Positions 33,557 through 40,956 are shown, counted from the first letter of the stretch. The stretch is DNA of 64,000 nt from a virus (IMGVR_UViG_3300013105_000003:32001-96000); one strand, 5' to 3'. Numbers and translations are program-made. The notes: a model not told the origin generated them from the letters alone.

Positions 33557-33630
33557 GGGAGTATAGCTTAACTGGAAGAGTGTCCTGACTCCAAATCAGG
33601 AAGGCGTCTGTTCGATTCGGACTACTCCCG
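33557..33630 (+). tRNA. tRNA-Trp(CCA)
   Basis: GGGAGTA/TACTCCC acceptor, CCTGA-CTCCAAA-TCAGG anticodon arm, GTCTG-TTCGATT-CGGAC T arm, G73; no encoded CCA. Confidence 0.9.
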
Positions 33631-33631
33631 C

Positions 33632-35674: not shown

Positions 35675-36046
35675 ATGGATATGCAAATAACCGATAACTA
35701 TTCCTCTAAGGCAGGAAAGCAACTTAAGGCAGCTTTGGCAATTGCTGAAGCTTCTCGTTGCTCTCATCGTCATGGAGCAGTTCTAGTAAAGAATGGAGTT
35801 GTTCTCGCTGCTGCCTCAAACCAGCAGCGCCAACCGCAACTCCCACATTGGGCAGAGGGTAGCTGGCGTAGGGTTAGTGTTCATGCAGAGGAGGCAGTTC
35901 TCTCTATGGCAGGAAATCAAGCACAAGGAGCTACGCTGTATGTGGCTCGTGTTGGTAGAATGGATCAAGTTTCCCCCTCTCGTCCCTGCCTTCGCTGCAC
36001 AGGTCTTGCTGAGCGTTCTGGTATTAGAAAGATTGTCCACACATGA
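35675..36046 (+). CDS. Zinc-dependent cytidine/dCMP deaminase-like protein
   Basis: HGAVLV, HAEE, SRPCLRC. Confidence 0.82.
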   Translation: MDMQITDNYSSKAGKQLKAALAIAEASRCSHRHGAVLVKNGVVLAAASNQQRQPQLPHWAEGSWRRVSVHAEEAVLSMAGNQAQGATLYVARVGRMDQVSPSRPCLRCTGLAERSGIRKIVHT

Positions 36047-36267
36047 GATTTCCTAAGTGGATATTCTGGCACAACTGGACAGGATGGGCCATTGGGTGGT
36101 ATCCTACAGAGGTCAGTTCGTTACAACTATCCCTCTTCTACCAGAGTGGCTATTACATTAACCTAGACATTATGGTTACTGAGAAGTTTGACCACCGACT
36201 GTCTTATAAGATTCGTAAGCCGGACAATTACTTATTTCCTGAAAGACGAGGCTTTCACCTACAATGA
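36043..36267 (+). CDS. Hypothetical protein
   Basis: Tiles operon. Confidence 0.4.
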   Translation: MRFPKWIFWHNWTGWAIGWYPTEVSSLQLSLFYQSGYYINLDIMVTEKFDHRLSYKIRKPDNYLFPERRGFHLQ

Positions 36268-36452
36268 TTAGTGACACTATTGACAGTGAGATTGATTACC
36301 TGATTGAGCGCCTAGTTAAGAGAGCTACTTCACGTATATCTAGTTCTGCTTCTGATGAGAATGCTAACCTAGCGTCAGCAATTAAGGATCTAGCAGAGGC
36401 TAAGTACTACCTCTCTGGGGGAGAGCCTTCTGTTAATTTGACAAAGAACTAA
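36264..36452 (+). CDS. Hypothetical protein
   Basis: Tiles operon. Confidence 0.5.
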   Translation: MISDTIDSEIDYLIERLVKRATSRISSSASDENANLASAIKDLAEAKYYLSGGEPSVNLTKN

Positions 36453-36461
36453 CGATAATAT
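36453..36461 (+). promoter_or_regulatory. CGATAATAT putative phage-sigma promoter
   Basis: Intergenic copy. Confidence 0.65.
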
Positions 36462-36484
36462 AATTAAGACGAAAGGATAGTCAA

Positions 36485-36721
36485 ATGGCTGACGAAAAGA
36501 CTGTAGATGCTACTCCACCAACTGTGGAGGAAGACACTAACGTACAGGAAGCTCCTCCTACCGTTACCGATGAGACAAACACAGGCGCAGAGGATGCTCC
36601 AGCTGCTGCAGAAGAGCCTGTCAAGCCTGTAGAGGGTAAGACCCTTGACCAGCTTGCAGAGGAAGATCCAGAAGCATTCTGGCACCCCGGCAGGGTACTA
36701 TCAGAGGACGACTCTAAGTAA
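36485..36721 (+). CDS. Small highly acidic protein
   Basis: CGATAATAT site plus RBS GAAAGGA; 22 D/E in 78 aa. Confidence 0.7.
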   Translation: MADEKTVDATPPTVEEDTNVQEAPPTVTDETNTGAEDAPAAAEEPVKPVEGKTLDQLAEEDPEAFWHPGRVLSEDDSK

Positions 36722-36754
36722 TAACCTAATCCTATACCACTAGGATTAGTCTTA

Positions 36755-36827
36755 GTGGGTATGGGAAAATTGGGAATCCGTCTGCTTTGGGAGCAGAAGA
36801 CTGCGAGTTCGAGCCTCGCTACCCGCA
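36755..36827 (+). tRNA. tRNA-Pro(TGG)
   Basis: GTGGGTA/TACCCGC acceptor, TCTGC-TTTGGGA-GCAGA anticodon arm, GCGAG-TTCGAGC-CTCGC T arm. Confidence 0.88.
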
Positions 36828-36840
36828 CAAATTAAATATT

Positions 36841-36947
36841 TCAAGCCAGTCTCTGAGTGGTTCGGGATCTCAGAGCCTAAGTGACAGCCGGTAGGTTAGA
36901 GGTGGCCTACCGGCTGTCTACGTCTGGTGAGATTTAATCCCGATCCA
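36841..36947 (+). ncRNA. Putative three-way-junction pseudoknotted RNA
   Basis: Two hairpins in a closing stem; loop TCGGGAT complementary to downstream ATCCCGA. Confidence 0.6.
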
Positions 36948-36950
36948 TAG

Positions 36951-36981
36951 AAAGGCACCTATTTAACATGTAGGTGCCTTT
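36951..36981 (+). terminator. Intrinsic terminator
   Basis: AAAGGCACCTA/TAGGTGCCTTT. Confidence 0.7.
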
Positions 36982-37006
36982 GTGTGTTGTATCTCTCTAA
37001 TTAAGA

Positions 37007-37015
37007 CGATAATAT
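37007..37015 (+). promoter_or_regulatory. CGATAATAT putative phage-sigma promoter
   Basis: After a terminator, before the appendage cassette. Confidence 0.65.
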
Positions 37016-37042
37016 AGATACCACCAGAGAGAAGGTACGGCC

Positions 37043-37759
37043 ATGCCAGCAGACCAACCAGGTGTCTACGAAGGTACTCTAGACCCAGGAACAGTATATG
37101 GAAAATGTTATTTAAATGTATCCTATGCTACGTTTGATACAGCAGACGACGATGACGATTTTCCTGAAAGACGAGTTCCTACTACTGCCTCTCTGACGTT
37201 AACACCAAATGTAGGTGGAGCACTCCTTGGAGCTGACTCCGAAATCATTGTAGTTTCGGCCAAGACTCTTACTACAACTGATGGTCACTTTGAATTCTGG
37301 TGTATAGACGGTAGTCATTCTAGCCTTAATCCAAGTGGGTGGAACTGGAATGCTCGTCTTAATGTTGATGGTGCCTTAATCAACAGCTTTAATTTTACTC
37401 CAGACTCAACAAATGTAGATCCTATTAACCTAGGGACTTTCTTCTCTATAAAAGATGCATCTACAGGAACCGTACTTCTTCCTGGACCTCCTCCTAGCGT
37501 TGAGTGGGTCGGGGATCAGTTAGTAGTTGGTGGTAAAATAGGACCTCATCTAACAGGTGGTGGAGGTTCTGGTGGAGGCACTAGCACTCCGTTATTGGTC
37601 CCAGTGACTTACGACAAGTCCAGTAACACATGGCCCACTCTGGATACCACCTTAGCGAATAACCCAGCTGTCACTTGGCACTTCATTGGCGGATCTGTAG
37701 CTAGTCCACCGCCAACAACTGTATCAGGAACTGCTCTTTGGGATAGGCCCCTGGTCTGA
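37043..37759 (+). CDS. Virion appendage/anchor protein (minor-tail-like)
   Basis: Beta-rich N-terminus, GPPP..W.GDQL...GPHLTG linker, Gly linker; own CGATAATAT site. Confidence 0.55.
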   Translation: MPADQPGVYEGTLDPGTVYGKCYLNVSYATFDTADDDDDFPERRVPTTASLTLTPNVGGALLGADSEIIVVSAKTLTTTDGHFEFWCIDGSHSSLNPSGWNWNARLNVDGALINSFNFTPDSTNVDPINLGTFFSIKDASTGTVLLPGPPPSVEWVGDQLVVGGKIGPHLTGGGGSGGGTSTPLLVPVTYDKSSNTWPTLDTTLANNPAVTWHFIGGSVASPPPTTVSGTALWDRPLV

Positions 37760-38625
37760 TGGCTGTTGAGACATACGTCCGGGAATCCAGTGGGTGGCGG
37801 TCGCTACGTACGGGGTCTCTACTGCTGCCACCTATCCCAGGCGGGTCAGGCATTCTGCCAACCCTGAGCAACACGGGGCCAGACCAGTCTGTGTCACTGA
37901 GTGATTTCTTTGGAGATTACAGCATCACCGACGCAGGTACCCGACTTTCCGGGCTGCATATCAGAGGTAGTCTTAATGTCAATGCAGCTGATGTTGCTGT
38001 CTCTGACTGTATTGTGGATGGGTCTATAAATTTAAATCAAGATGGTAGTGTTGGTACTCCCCCAGCAGGACAAACATTTACACGCGTTAGAGCTTCTTCT
38101 GCGTATAATGCATATGGGTTCCAAGACCTGACTTTCGACCTGTGTCAGTTCACTGCTGAGGGTTCTGGGGAGTACAACTCAACTGAAATGCAGATGCGCT
38201 CTTATACATCTAACCAGCCAGGTCAGACCGCTAAAAACTTGACTGTAAGAAATTCTTACTTTGGTGCTCCACCACACAACGTAACAGGTTCCCATCTACA
38301 AGCCATACACTTGATGGGTGTTCAAGGTGCTCTGATACAGAACAACAATATGGAATACATAGCGCCTGATTCAGACACCAAAGTTTGGGTTACTGCTGTA
38401 CTTTACTGTGAAAACTATGACAGTGAGTGTCAAGACATTACGATAGACTCTAATCGTTTTCGAGGTGGTGGATACTACTGTTTGAACTTCCACGGCAGTA
38501 GGTATGTCATTACAGACAACGACATTGACCCAGACTACGCTGGTGGGTTTAAGTACCCATCCAGTGATCTAACGATTGCGCACCAGGCCGGAAATACCTG
38601 TGGCAGCACATCGGTCACTTTCTAA
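37759..38625 (+). CDS. Right-handed beta-helix protein (possible polysaccharide depolymerase)
   Basis: P..SNTGP start; repeated LTVRNSYF/LIQNNNM/ITIDSNRF..GG.Y rungs. Confidence 0.6.
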   Translation: MAVETYVRESSGWRSLRTGSLLLPPIPGGSGILPTLSNTGPDQSVSLSDFFGDYSITDAGTRLSGLHIRGSLNVNAADVAVSDCIVDGSINLNQDGSVGTPPAGQTFTRVRASSAYNAYGFQDLTFDLCQFTAEGSGEYNSTEMQMRSYTSNQPGQTAKNLTVRNSYFGAPPHNVTGSHLQAIHLMGVQGALIQNNNMEYIAPDSDTKVWVTAVLYCENYDSECQDITIDSNRFRGGGYYCLNFHGSRYVITDNDIDPDYAGGFKYPSSDLTIAHQAGNTCGSTSVTF

Positions 38626-38640
38626 GGAAGGAAAATAAAT

Positions 38641-39501
38641 ATGACTGCTGGAGATGTTGTTCAGTCTAAAGGCACCGTCACAGGGGCATCTACTGTGACT
38701 GTGCTCGCTATCACACTTGCCAGTTCTGTTACACCTGGCAATACTGTAGTGGTTGCTATCGCTCCCACGACCCCGGTGACCTCGACACCCGCAGGGTTCT
38801 CACTTGTGAACACCGACAACAACGGTAACTACCTTTACGCCTCAAGTTCAGCCTCCGGCAGCAGTTGGTCTTTTGGCTTCTCTGGTGGCGCTACTGTTGC
38901 AGCCATAGCTACAGAGTTTGTTGGGGCGGCATCCTTTACTGCGTCCACTTACGCCACTTCCGGGTCGGCAGGAACAGCTGCCAATAGCTCGCCTGTGGCA
39001 GCATCAGCAGGTCAAGTCGCTCTGGCCTACGCTCTGTATGGCAGCACTTCGGCAGTGCCTGCGGTTTCGGCATGGGCCAATGGATTCACTCAAGTCACCC
39101 AATCTGTTGCTACCTCAGGAGGAGGCTTCAACCTCAGAGCTGCACTAGCCACACGGACTTCCGCTGGTGGGCCTGAGAGCACTACAGCTACCTTCCCAAG
39201 CGCCGTTAACTGGACATTAGTGACTGCGGTTGCAAGCTTTGCTGTTCTTACCCCGTTGAGTACTCCAGTGGTCACATTGGGTAACACAGTGAACCCAACG
39301 TCGTCTTCTGCGTCTGACGGATCACAGGTTGTTACGTGGCCCGCTGTCGCTAACGCAACCAGCTACGAAGCTTGGTCTACCACTAAAGCTAATCCAGCAC
39401 AGGGTGACTTCGTGTTGGTAGCCTCAGGCGTCACGTCTCCGTACCAATTTGTAAATTTGTCAAACGGAACCTATAGCTTCGGAATTAAGGCGAAGGCTTA
39501 A
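38641..39501 (+). CDS. Ala/Ser/Thr-rich structural protein ending in an incomplete FN3-like domain
   Basis: VTWPAVANATSYE...NLSNGTYSFGIKAKA-stop; strong RBS. Confidence 0.65.
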   Translation: MTAGDVVQSKGTVTGASTVTVLAITLASSVTPGNTVVVAIAPTTPVTSTPAGFSLVNTDNNGNYLYASSSASGSSWSFGFSGGATVAAIATEFVGAASFTASTYATSGSAGTAANSSPVAASAGQVALAYALYGSTSAVPAVSAWANGFTQVTQSVATSGGGFNLRAALATRTSAGGPESTTATFPSAVNWTLVTAVASFAVLTPLSTPVVTLGNTVNPTSSSASDGSQVVTWPAVANATSYEAWSTTKANPAQGDFVLVASGVTSPYQFVNLSNGTYSFGIKAKA

Positions 39502-39503
39502 GC

Positions 39504-39785
39504 GTGGCCGGGTACTTGGATTCATCTATAGGATATGTCAGTAAAAAAATTGGCTTATCAGGTTTTTCCGACTCGTCTATAGGCTATGCAACTAAAAAAA
39601 TTGGCCTGCCCCTGTACTCTGACTCACCTATAGGCTATGCAACTAAAAAAATTGGACTGCAGACGTATCGAGACTCCGAAATAGGTTTTAACACTAAGCA
39701 AGTTGGTGTTCCACAAGCCACCAGGTTTTTGTTTGTCTCAGGAGCTTGGATTCCCACCGAGACGACGATAGTTACTAGAGCCTGA
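39504..39785 (+). CDS. Small protein with four 17-aa repeats
   Basis: DS[SPE]IG[YF]xxKxxG repeated at 51-nt period. Confidence 0.65.
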   Translation: MAGYLDSSIGYVSKKIGLSGFSDSSIGYATKKIGLPLYSDSPIGYATKKIGLQTYRDSEIGFNTKQVGVPQATRFLFVSGAWIPTETTIVTRA

Positions 39786-39873
39786 TGGTTGGTAGGGCCA
39801 GCTACCCTTAGGATAAGCTATTTGCTTCCTCAGAACCTAATAACACTAGTACCAGAAGTGTTATAATAGAAGA

Positions 39874-40956
39874 ATGACGATAAACTCTCTTCTAGTAACT
39901 GACTTTCAGTCAATAAAGAAAGCCAAGGTTGACTTTTCCTCCAAACCAAGCGGAGGGTCTGTCACTACTTTCGTTGGTCCTTCCTCTACTGGTAAGTCTG
40001 CACTTCTTAGAGCACTAAAGATGGTAATGAGAAATACCTCTTCTGCTCCTGTGAGAATCCAGGAAGCTGCTGCAAAGACTACTGTTACAGCTGACATTGA
40101 TGGAACACCTGTAAGAATCGAACGAGGTAAGTCTCTCTCAACATATTTCATTGGTACTGAGAAGTACTCTAAGGCAGGTACGTCTGTACCTCAAGCTGTC
40201 CAAGATGTGCTAAAGTTAGATGATTCTCCTGTAGAATTGCATGTGGCTTTCCAGTTCGACAAGCCATACCTACTTGATGAGTCAGGTACTACAGTCTCTG
40301 CTATCATCGGTAAGCTAACTCACGCTAACACTCTACGTCTAGCTGTCAAAGAAGGAAACCGAAGGTCACTAGAGTCTAGTAGATTACTGAAGACACGAAT
40401 AACTGACCTAGAGAAAGCACGAGAGCAGTTAGTAGAGTATCAGTGGGTAGACCAATCTACTACAGAAGTTGCCGAAGCTAAGGAACTATTAACTTATTTC
40501 AAAAGTCTCACCAACAAAGTTGCTACTGTAGATGTAGCTAGAACTACTACCAAGGCAAGTCAGCAGAAGTACCTACAAGCCTCTCAGAACGTCTCAGATC
40601 ACCCAGACGTATCAGCGGAGCTAGAGAAGGCTACAGACCTCTTACAACGCTCTGTGAAGGCTTACTCGGTACTAACCATGATAGAGGACAAGAAGTTCTT
40701 TGCTAAGAAGTTGTTGGATAAGAAGCCTGTCACGTTTGACAGCGCAGAACTTGATGTGATAGACTCGTACTACGACAAGATCGCCGCAGTAAAGAAGCTA
40801 GTGTCCGACACTAAGACTACCCTTAGTAAGTTCCAAGCACTTAAAACTCAGATTAATACCCTTAAGGAAGCCTCAGAGGATGCTCAGGAAGTTTATAATC
40901 TCACTCTACGGAGAGCAAATTACTGCCCAACCTGTGGTAACAGCGTCTGTTCCTGA
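39874..40956 (+). CDS. SbcC/Rad50-like ATPase, N-terminal half only
   Basis: DFQS, GPSSTGKSALLRAL, Q-loop, coiled coil, terminal CPTCG hook. Confidence 0.8.
   Translation: MTINSLLVTDFQSIKKAKVDFSSKPSGGSVTTFVGPSSTGKSALLRALKMVMRNTSSAPVRIQEAAAKTTVTADIDGTPVRIERGKSLSTYFIGTEKYSKAGTSVPQAVQDVLKLDDSPVELHVAFQFDKPYLLDESGTTVSAIIGKLTHANTLRLAVKEGNRRSLESSRLLKTRITDLEKAREQLVEYQWVDQSTTEVAEAKELLTYFKSLTNKVATVDVARTTTKASQQKYLQASQNVSDHPDVSAELEKATDLLQRSVKAYSVLTMIEDKKFFAKKLLDKKPVTFDSAELDVIDSYYDKIAAVKKLVSDTKTTLSKFQALKTQINTLKEASEDAQEVYNLTLRRANYCPTCGNSVCS

What the first reader, a model, noticed from the sequence alone, without database searches (positions are those of the whole stretch)
38641..39785. Split FN3 domain: a 93-aa protein carries four copies of the strand missing from its neighbour (candidate donor-strand scaffold)
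Seen: ORF 38641 ends mid-domain at GTYSFGIKAKA-stop. The next ORF starts 2 nt later with AGYLDSSIGYVSKKIG and repeats this 17-aa unit four times (D codons at 39519, 39570, 39621, 39672). Known: FN3-like domains continue after the YxFxVKA F strand with a GYxDSxxS loop and final G strand; donor-strand complementation is established in chaperone-usher pili. Inference: each repeat completes one truncated FN3, so one scaffold displays up to four copies of the upstream protein. A -1 shift at the junction would give KAKA-LSVAGYLDS, a fused form with three spare strands.
Basis: partly seen in the sequence, partly recalled or inferred. Interest (0 to 1): 0.8.

Follow-up and report, generated by a model that had tools for sequence, protein, structure and literature searches.

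The report
Split FN3 domain with tandem spare strands
A phage tail-appendage gene always ends one beta-strand short of a complete FN3 domain, and a partner protein, usually encoded by the very next gene, carries 2-7 copies of a short strand-like repeat, so the two most likely snap together by strand donation; no phage family of this kind is on record.

Summary
Gene A (38641-39501) ends in GIKAKA-stop. Gene B (39504-39785) starts 2 nt later and holds four 17-aa repeats.

- **Conserved stop.** About 40 relatives of A from unrelated contigs (GC 45-68%) all stop at the same point.
- **Conserved partner.** In 23 of 28 loci a small gene with 2-7 DSxIGY-type repeats follows within about 10 nt. In others the repeats sit on a neighbouring enzyme.
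- **No recoding.** The A-to-B frame varies (0, +1, +2), so a frameshift, a readthrough or a sequencing indel is excluded.
- **Truncated fold.** AlphaFold2 gives a confident six-stranded FN3 for A (pLDDT 96-98). It aligns to the first ~80 of ~100 residues of solved FN3 domains, so strand G is missing.
- **Co-variation.** Where B repeats carry Trp instead of Ile, A loses Trp245 and Gly281. All eight class-specific columns lie on the C, C' and F strands.

Direct docking could not be tested.

Best reading (about 0.55): B is a tether whose repeats each complete one FN3 in trans. No Pfam, PHROG or cultured-phage relative exists.

The parts
36951..36981 (+). Terminator-like hairpin marking the upstream edge of the four-gene appendage cassette
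   Evidence: 12-bp stem followed by a T-rich tail.
37043..37759 (+). Gene X, 238 aa, first gene of the cassette. No family found.
   Evidence: The counterpart in L002 hits tail-fibre PHROGs weakly.
37759..38625 (+). Gene Y, 288 aa, weak right-handed beta-helix (tailspike-like). Its start overlaps the stop of X.
   Evidence: PF13229 at E=0.007, below the curated cut-off. Homologous loci carry beta-helix or pectate-lyase proteins in this position.
38641..39252 (+). Gene A, N-terminal cargo domain (residues 1-204). It is unique to this phage and has no recognisable family.
   Evidence: AF2 pLDDT is 30-58. BLAST places it as a singleton among four N-domain groups. Most homologs carry a ConA-like jelly roll here instead.
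39253..39498 (+). Gene A, C-terminal FN3 domain lacking strand G (residues 205-286). It has strands A, B, C, C', E and F only, and ends GIKAKA.
   Evidence: pLDDT 96-98, six strands. FN3 matches at Z 8-9.2, rmsd about 2.0 A over 72-75 residues, covering target residues ~2-83 of 96-101; about 40 homologs end at the same place.
39499..39501 (+). TAA stop of gene A. Its position is conserved across the family.
39492..39496 (+). GAAGG Shine-Dalgarno-like motif, 7 nt upstream of the GTG of gene B.
   Evidence: Read from the sequence. Function is inferred.
39504..39785 (+). Gene B, 93 aa: four donor-strand-like repeats plus a C-terminal tail. It is not called as a gene in the public protein collection.
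39519..39569 (+). Repeat 1 (DSSIGY...). It starts at residue 6 of B.
39570..39620 (+). Repeat 2
39621..39671 (+). Repeat 3
39672..39722 (+). Repeat 4, the divergent DSEIGF form. The last repeat typically has F in the family.
39723..39782 (+). C-terminal tail of B. It aligns with the family's PH(K/R)P...WDG tail and is a putative anchor to the virion or to a tailspike.
   Evidence: Alignments. The role is inferred.
39840..39867 (+). Promoter-like site (10 of 12 matches, extended -10) ahead of the next module. It marks the downstream edge of the cassette.

Best explanation
A and B form a two-part docking system for a phage tail appendage.

**The parts**
- A is a swappable cargo domain joined to a constant FN3 domain. 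In most relatives the cargo is a ConA-like lectin or lyase jelly roll. In this phage it is an unrelated N-domain.
- The FN3 is genetically truncated after strand F.
- B is a short tether. Its N-terminal part is a string of autonomous 13-residue elements of the form [Y/F/R]xDSxIG[Y/F]xxx[T/K][L/I], joined by short linkers. Its C-terminal tail probably fixes it to the virion or to a neighbouring tailspike.

**The proposed mechanism**
Each element is proposed to lie at the free edge of strand F, in the vacant G position. Its Ile/Tyr side chains would pack against the outer face of the C'-C-F sheet, over Gly281 towards Trp245. This completes the domain in trans. One B chain could therefore hold up to four copies of A here, and 2-7 in relatives.

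**What is shown**
- The truncation and its conservation.
- Co-occurrence of the A and B modules.
- Autonomy and number variation of the repeats.
- Co-variation with the C/C'/F sheet.

**What is inferred**
- The physical docking and its geometry.
- One A per repeat.
- The anchoring role of the tail.

My odds are about 0.55 that at least one repeat completes the FN3, and about 0.4 that every repeat binds its own copy of A.
For: 1. All ~40 relatives of A end 5-7 residues after the invariant Gly of strand F.
2. AF2 gives a six-stranded FN3 at pLDDT 96-98. Solved FN3 domains align only to their first ~80 of ~100 residues at Z 8-9.2.
3. In 26 of 28 loci a protein bearing the repeats is encoded next to A or close by (23 immediately downstream, L030, L024, L022). 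B starts -4 to +9 nt from the stop of A in 23 of them. It is fused to the downstream enzyme in L014, L016, L025 and L039. It lies at the N-terminus of the upstream tailspike in L024.
4. The B family has 85 cluster representatives. The first repeat starts at residue 2-6 in 65 of 72 scored. Repeat number is 2-7, and spacing is 17-23 aa but reaches 76. Repeats can be split by whole GH16 or SGNH domains. This fits independent docking units rather than one cooperative fold.
5. The variable residue 4 is uniform within each protein: Ile only in 42, Trp only in 11, Thr only in 4, and never Ile with Trp.
6. In the four Trp-class pairs A has S241H, W245 to C/C/G/A, V264A, and G281 to A/A/F/A. Only 8 of ~92 FN3 columns separate the classes. 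All 8 lie in strands C, C' and F, and none in A, B or E. These four FN3 domains are only 34-67% identical to each other and sit on three different cargo domains.
7. From the strand-F Ala to the DS of repeat 1 is about 10 residues, the length of an FN3 FG loop (sequence). The comparison with the FN3 consensus comes from my own knowledge.
Against: - The single-chain read-through fold of a homolog (L005, A+B) left B at pLDDT 24-59. It did not place repeat 1 as strand G. Only five rows of that alignment covered B, so the test is weak.
- AF2 is fully confident in the six-stranded domain on its own, so it may be stable without a seventh strand.
- The repeat does not match any FN3 profile by sequence.
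- The co-variation rests on one divergent group of FN3 domains, so the number of independent events is small.
- Two loci show no repeat-bearing gene next to A. L026 is a distant relative. L023 has too little DNA downstream to tell.
Confidence: 0.55

Rival explanations
1. A and B are merely co-operonic tail-appendage parts. The six-stranded FN3 is a stable variant domain. B is a separate short fibre or anchor whose repeats oligomerise, for example as a trimeric beta-structure, or bind the host surface or another virion protein. Any A-B contact does not fill the G position.
For: - AF2 folds the domain confidently without a seventh strand.
- The read-through model does not dock repeat 1. Its only strand in B (residues 357-363) falls within the aligned range of two jelly-roll matches, which may place it nearer the jelly roll than the FN3.
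- The same repeats occur at N-termini of tailspike-type enzymes, where N-terminal anchor regions are usual.
- In L010 the tail of B repeats the N-terminal motif of the neighbouring tailspike (score above all 500 shuffles).
Against: - It does not explain why the FN3 is always cut exactly after strand F.
- It does not explain why class-specific changes in B are mirrored only on the C/C'/F sheet of A.
- It does not explain why the FN3-B pairing survives three exchanges of the cargo domain.
- Repeats separated by whole domains or by 40-76-aa linkers argue against a cooperative fibre fold.
Confidence: 0.3
2. A and B are made as one polypeptide by programmed -1 frameshifting or stop-codon readthrough. 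This would give a complete FN3 followed by spare strands.
For: - In the window a -1 shift between 39489 and 39499 would join the frames.
- In 10 loci B is in frame with A, with one codon between the stop and the start.
- In L030 no ATG, GTG or TTG precedes the in-frame repeats.
Against: - There is no X_XXY_YYZ heptamer at the junction.
- Frame relations are 0, +2 and +1 in 10, 10 and 3 loci.
- All three stop codons are used.
- Every B except L030 has its own start codon.
- The gene order is inverted in L024.
- No fused A-B protein was found among proteins of 157-2000 aa.
Confidence: 0.04
3. Artefact or non-coding repeat. The stop would be a sequencing indel or a pseudogene break. Alternatively, the 51-nt repeats would be DNA elements, such as tandem promoters or iterons, in an intergenic region.
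For: - B is not called as a gene in the public collection.
- The repeat contains a TATAGG-like core and phased A7 tracts.
Against: - The stop is conserved in about 40 homologs.
- The excess of synonymous changes is specific to the frame of B.
- A family HMM hits B at E=1.7e-14.
- Homologs at 64-68% GC keep the peptide motif but not the DNA motif.
Confidence: 0.01

Closest known systems
Donor-strand complementation and exchange in chaperone-usher pili (PapD/FimC systems) and the strand exchange of Bacteroidia type V pili. This comparison is from my own knowledge.
   Same: An Ig-like subunit is encoded without its C-terminal G strand. The groove is filled by a strand from the N-terminal part of another polypeptide.
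   Different: - There is no chaperone or usher, and the setting is a phage virion.
- The acceptor is an FN3 appended to a cargo domain, not a self-polymerising pilin.
- The donor carries 2-7 tandem strands on one chain, so it would be a hub rather than a head-to-tail polymer.
- There is no sequence relation.
- Docking is not yet shown.
Cellulosome scaffoldin (cohesin-dockerin)
   Same: One scaffold chain has several equivalent docking sites. These recruit multiple copies of carbohydrate-active cargo that carry a constant adaptor module.
   Different: - Here the scaffold sites are about 13-residue peptides and the adaptor is an incomplete FN3.
- There are no cohesin or dockerin domains (no Pfam hits).
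- Binding would be by fold completion, not by contact between two folded domains.
Engineered split-domain pairs. One is FN3 fragment complementation (Dutta et al. 2005, Protein Sci 14:2838), seen only as a title in the reference list of PMC11666773. The others are SpyTag/SpyCatcher-type pairs, from my own knowledge.
   Same: A beta-sandwich domain is split into a large fragment and a short strand peptide that reassemble.
   Different: Those are laboratory constructs. Here the split is natural, conserved and multiplied in tandem, and no covalent bond is implied.
Ig-like domains added to phage structural proteins by programmed frameshift (Fraser et al. 2006, J Mol Biol). This is from my own knowledge.
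   Same: An Ig-superfamily domain sits at the C-terminal end of a phage structural gene, next to a gene boundary.
   Different: There the whole domain is added by recoding. Here the domain is interrupted, and the frame relation is not conserved, so recoding is not the mechanism.
Tail-fibre assembly proteins encoded just downstream of fibre genes (lambda Tfa, T4 gp38 type). This is from my own knowledge.
   Same: A small gene lies immediately downstream of a receptor-binding-type gene.
   Different: - B has no similarity to these families.
- B consists of tandem short repeats.
- The same repeats occur as N-terminal parts of enzymes.

Membership tests
Fibronectin type III fold (structural class) | Beta-sandwich with sheets A-B-E and C'-C-F-G, and a Trp in strand B and Tyr in strands C and F | tested here: met
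   top matches are all FN3 domains at Z 8.0-9.2, rmsd about 2 A over 70-76 residues. The TW, SY and GTY motifs are present. Six of the seven strands are present.
Fibronectin type III fold (structural class) | Seventh strand (G) within the same chain | tested here: not met
   One search gives strands at 212-217, 227-232, 241-247, 258-262, 268-273 and 279-285 only. The chain ends at 286. Targets align over residues ~2-83 of 96-101.
Pfam fn3 (PF00041) sequence family | Score above the Pfam gathering threshold | tested here: not met
   There is no fn3 hit, even at E up to 10, for A, for the isolated domain or for read-through A+B.
Chaperone-usher donor-strand complementation | Acceptor Ig-like subunit lacking its C-terminal strand | tested here: met
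   (by prediction).
Chaperone-usher donor-strand complementation | Donor strand from another chain occupies the groove | tested here: inconclusive
   The single-chain read-through fold is uninformative. Co-variation supports contact with the C/C'/F sheet.
Chaperone-usher donor-strand complementation | Dedicated periplasmic chaperone and outer-membrane usher genes | tested here: not met
   The cassette genes have no such Pfam hits, and the setting is a phage virion module.
Programmed -1 frameshift fusion | Slippery heptamer and a conserved frame relation between the two ORFs | tested here: not met
   There is no heptamer at 39480-39503. Frames are 0, +2 and +1 in 10, 10 and 3 loci.
Cohesin-dockerin scaffoldin | Cohesin repeats on the scaffold and a dockerin on the cargo | tested here: not met
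   No Pfam hits to either.
A/B module defined here (FN3 without strand G, plus DSxIGY-repeat protein) | A ends within 7 residues of the strand-F Gly. An adjacent protein has at least 2 repeats starting at its N-terminus. It also has a C-terminal PHxP...WDG-type tail. | tested here: met
   The window pair meets the first two features. The tail aligns but is divergent.

The most novel reading that the evidence does not exclude
Phages of Actinobacteria and Saccharibacteria use a natural tag-and-catcher system. A constant FN3 domain lacking strand G is fused to interchangeable lectin or lyase cargos. It is captured by fold completion on tandem 13-residue donor strands. These strands sit either on a free tether protein or at the N-termini of tailspike enzymes. 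The number of repeats (2-7) sets how many cargo copies each tether displays. Matched Ile/Trp/Thr classes keep different systems from cross-reacting.
Probability: 0.4. Interest if true: 0.85.

Novelty: new variant of a known kind. Interest (0 to 1): 0.74.

Why it matters
If the docking is real, it would be the first donor-strand (fold-completion) assembly described in a virus. It would also be the first with many donor strands in tandem on one chain.

- It would explain how some phages attach and multiply carbohydrate-binding or depolymerase modules without fusing them to a fibre.
- It would explain how such cargos can be exchanged while the connector stays constant.
- It would give annotators a rule for two gene families that are now 'hypothetical'. 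One of them is often not even called as a gene.
- It would offer a small natural peptide-domain pair, with apparently orthogonal specificity classes, for multivalent display.

Even if docking fails, the strictly conserved truncation of a domain at a gene boundary still needs an explanation.

Tried and rejected
**Tools and searches that gave nothing**
- AF2 of the read-through L005 A+B did not dock repeat 1. B stayed at low confidence and gave no verdict.
- A sequence search of the read-through FN3+B against PDB gave only marginal antibody V-domain hits. The profile search gave none.
- No A or B relatives were found among 50,697 cultured phage records by blastn or tblastn.
- IMG/VR gave only two loci.
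- No longer proteins of 502-2000 aa carry this FN3. This is weak evidence.
- The word-index search with window B found nothing, not even itself.
- The ESM Atlas gave only unnamed viral clusters below 0.9.
- PHROGs gave nothing for B, and nothing for three of the four A/B-GH16 homologs tested; P0004 (an A homolog) had only two weak hits (E 0.0015-0.0087).

**Ideas rejected**
- My first idea was that the 51-nt repeats are T7-like promoters or iterons, because of the GACTCAC-CTATAGG core. I rejected it on codon-level and homolog evidence.
- I also considered that the tail of B equals the N-terminal anchor of the neighbouring tailspike. This is significant only in L010, and not in the window or eight other loci.

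**Rarity**
- Searches of 401 genomes of the Microbacterium MAG's order and 401 genomes of the Saccharibacteria MAG's class found only 1 and 2 carriers.

Full report
**1. What is in the window**

ORF A (38641-39501, 286 aa) ends in GIKAKA followed by TAA. Two bases later a GTG opens ORF B (39504-39785, 93 aa).
- B contains four 17-aa units starting at 39519, 39570, 39621 and 39672.
- Tandem Repeats Finder reports the 51-nt period. The motif is confined to this spot.
- A GAAGG lies 7 nt before the GTG.
- The cassette 37043-39785 has four genes: X, a weak beta-helix protein Y, A and B. It is bounded by a terminator-like hairpin (36951-36981) and by a promoter-like site (39840-39867).
- It sits inside the replication and nucleotide-metabolism region of a 125-kb phage genome with terminal repeats.
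- Its GC is higher and its GC skew opposite to its surroundings.

**2. The repeats are protein-coding**

- Between the four copies, differing codons are synonymous in 26 of 72 pairs in the frame of B. The other frames give 5 of 63 and 3 of 62. Both of those frames are full of stops.
- A profile built from relatives without the window sequence finds B at E=1.7e-14. It is the only significant hit among 991 six-frame segments.
- My first suspicion was that the TATAGG-containing repeats are tandem promoters or iterons. This evidence rejects it.

**3. The stop is a family feature, not an accident**

- Thirty-four other proteins of 214-323 aa match A, mainly over its last ~85 residues at 44-70% identity. 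Every one ends at the same place: GIKAKA, GIKAKP and close variants.
- No A-B fusion appeared among proteins of 157-501 aa, nor among those of 502-2000 aa.

**4. The partner is conserved too**

- I recovered DNA for 28 loci from Logan, JGI and ENA metagenomes and from MAGs, with GC from 45% to 68%.
- In 23 loci a small gene starts -4 to +9 nt from the stop of A and begins at once with DSxIGY-type repeats.
- The frame of B relative to A is 0 in ten loci, +2 in ten and +1 in three. TAA, TAG and TGA all occur, and each B has its own ATG or GTG.
- In L030 the repeats continue in frame after the TAG, with no ATG, GTG or TTG before them. In L022 a different gene follows A, and B-type repeats appear about 650 nt further on.
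- In L014, L016, L025 and L039 the repeats are the N-terminal part of the downstream enzyme (GH16-like, SGNH-like or beta-helix). A still lies directly upstream.
- In L024 A is the last gene. The repeats sit at the N-terminus of the upstream beta-helix protein.
- Two loci show no partner. L026 is distant and L023 is too short downstream.
- A frameshift, a readthrough or an indel cannot explain this pattern.

**5. The B family**

- A profile search of 1.84 billion representatives gave 85 hits at E<=0.001, mostly of 60-125 aa.
- Among 76 short members the commonest repeat number is three. The regex count runs from two to five, and six or seven were seen by eye in L009 and P0043.
- The first repeat begins at residue 2-6 in 65 of 72 members.
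- Spacing is usually 17-23 residues but reaches 76. In some proteins a whole enzyme domain separates repeats.
- Most members end in a PH(K/R)P...WDG-type tail.
- The repeats therefore behave as self-contained units on a flexible string.

**6. Structure predictions**

- For the window's A, AF2 gives residues 205-286 at pLDDT 96-98 with exactly six strands.
- An all-against-all structural comparison returns only FN3 domains at the top (Z 8.0-9.2, rmsd about 2 A). The end of the model falls at residue ~76-84 of domains 90-101 long, so the FG loop and strand G are absent.
- The N-terminal 200 residues of the window's A are modelled poorly and have no relatives.
- In the main group of homologs the N-domain is a confident ConA-like jelly roll. 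Its matches are glucuronan lyase at Z 18.5, alginate lyases, sialidase lectin domains and the phage J-1 Dit CBM2 at Z 15.2. The best viral match is a Microbacterium phage 'hydrolase'.
- By BLAST the N-domains fall into four unlinked groups, while the truncated FN3 is shared. The FN3 is therefore the constant connector and the N-domain the exchangeable cargo.

**7. The docking test I could run was inconclusive**

- As a substitute I folded a natural in-frame locus (L005) read through its TAA.
- The FN3 again had six strands, and B stayed at pLDDT 24-59. Its only weak strand was in repeat 3, and its position is uncertain.
- Only five alignment rows covered B, so this neither supports nor excludes docking.

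**8. Co-variation**

- Residue 4 of the repeat is uniform within each B protein: Ile in 42, Ile/Val in 11, Trp in 11 and Thr in 4. Ile and Trp never occur together.
- Four Trp-class pairs were recovered (L025, L033, L039, L040). Their FN3 domains are 34-67% identical to each other and sit on three different cargo groups.
- In all four, A has His for Ser241, a small residue for the Trp/Tyr at 245, Ala for Val264, and Ala or Phe for the otherwise invariant Gly281.
- The single Thr-class pair has Arg at 245.
- Only 8 of about 92 columns separate the classes. All lie in strands C, C' and F (positions 240-281), and none in A, B or E.
- By the usual in/out alternation of FN3 strands (my inference), 241, 245 and 281 face the outer side of the sheet that lacks strand G.
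- A large-for-small exchange between the two chains at that sheet is what direct packing predicts.
- The caveat is phylogeny. The Trp class may represent few independent events.

**9. Most likely mechanism**

- B is a tether. Each repeat fills or flanks the vacant G position of one A molecule.
- The tail fixes B to the virion or to a tailspike. Where the repeats are fused to an enzyme, that enzyme itself is the platform.
- In this phage up to four copies of A would hang on one B.
- I put 0.55 on fold completion by at least one repeat, and about 0.4 on one A per repeat.
- The main rival (0.3) is that the six-stranded domain is self-sufficient and B is a separate fibre or anchor element.
- Recoding (0.04) and artefact (0.01) are effectively excluded.

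**10. Relation to what is known**

- The logic is that of donor-strand complementation in bacterial pili. The hub-like layout recalls the cellulosome scaffoldin.
- None of their defining proteins or domains is present.
- Neither A nor B has a Pfam or PHROG family (one A homolog gave two weak PHROG hits, E 0.0015-0.0087) or a relative in cultured phages.
- Full-text searches found no paper describing strand donation in phage appendages.
- Genome hits are five Saccharibacteria MAGs and one Microbacterium MAG. The module is rare there.

**11. Verdict**

The frameshift alternative is rejected.

Noticed in passing
window 39543-39549, 39594-39600, 39645-39651: Three of the four repeats contain an A7 run (Lys-Lys codons plus the A of ATT). 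Slippage there would truncate B after one, two or three repeats, because both other frames stop soon after. The GC-rich homologs have no such runs, so this is not a family feature.
   Followed up: partly
window 36000-40000: The four-gene appendage cassette has higher GC (0.47-0.48 against 0.43-0.44) and a negative GC skew. It lies inside a + skewed replication and nucleotide-metabolism region containing SNF2, DnaB, PolA, RecA, RNR and an SbcC-like exonuclease. It looks like an acquired island.
   Followed up: partly
window 39504-39785: Gene B of this phage is absent from the 5.8-billion-protein collection, although gene A is present. Gene callers apparently miss it.
   Followed up: yes
L030:549-650 (Saccharibacteria MAG): After the TAG stop of A, the B-type repeats continue in the same frame with no ATG, GTG or TTG before them. 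This could be readthrough, an unusual start codon or a decaying copy.
   Followed up: no
L010:1061-1110 and L010:4040-4127: The tail of B carries two copies of a VGVDGQW motif that also opens the neighbouring 644-aa beta-helix protein (score above all 500 shuffles). No such match was seen in the window or in eight other loci.
   Followed up: yes
In homologous cassettes gene X ends in a conserved ...W.QHPDAV.. motif. Gene Y opens with ..TLRVL..PG.LRGVGL.., and its start overlaps the stop of X. The window's X and Y ends differ. This could be a second inter-chain joint. It is untested.
   Followed up: partly
L040:157-606, L041:148-606, L039:2497-2823(-), L024:3834-4679: Collagen-like Gly-X-Y repeat proteins lie next to the A/B module in several Saccharibacteria-associated loci.
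   Followed up: no
P0087 (589 aa), P0098, P0122: Unrelated long proteins with many tandem copies of a similar short motif (for example DSNVDYGIKKL) scored weakly against the B profile. This is probably convergent low-complexity repeats.
   Followed up: no
window 33557-33631 and 36755-36828: ARAGORN found tRNA-Trp(CCA) and tRNA-Pro(TGG) genes upstream of the cassette.
   Followed up: no
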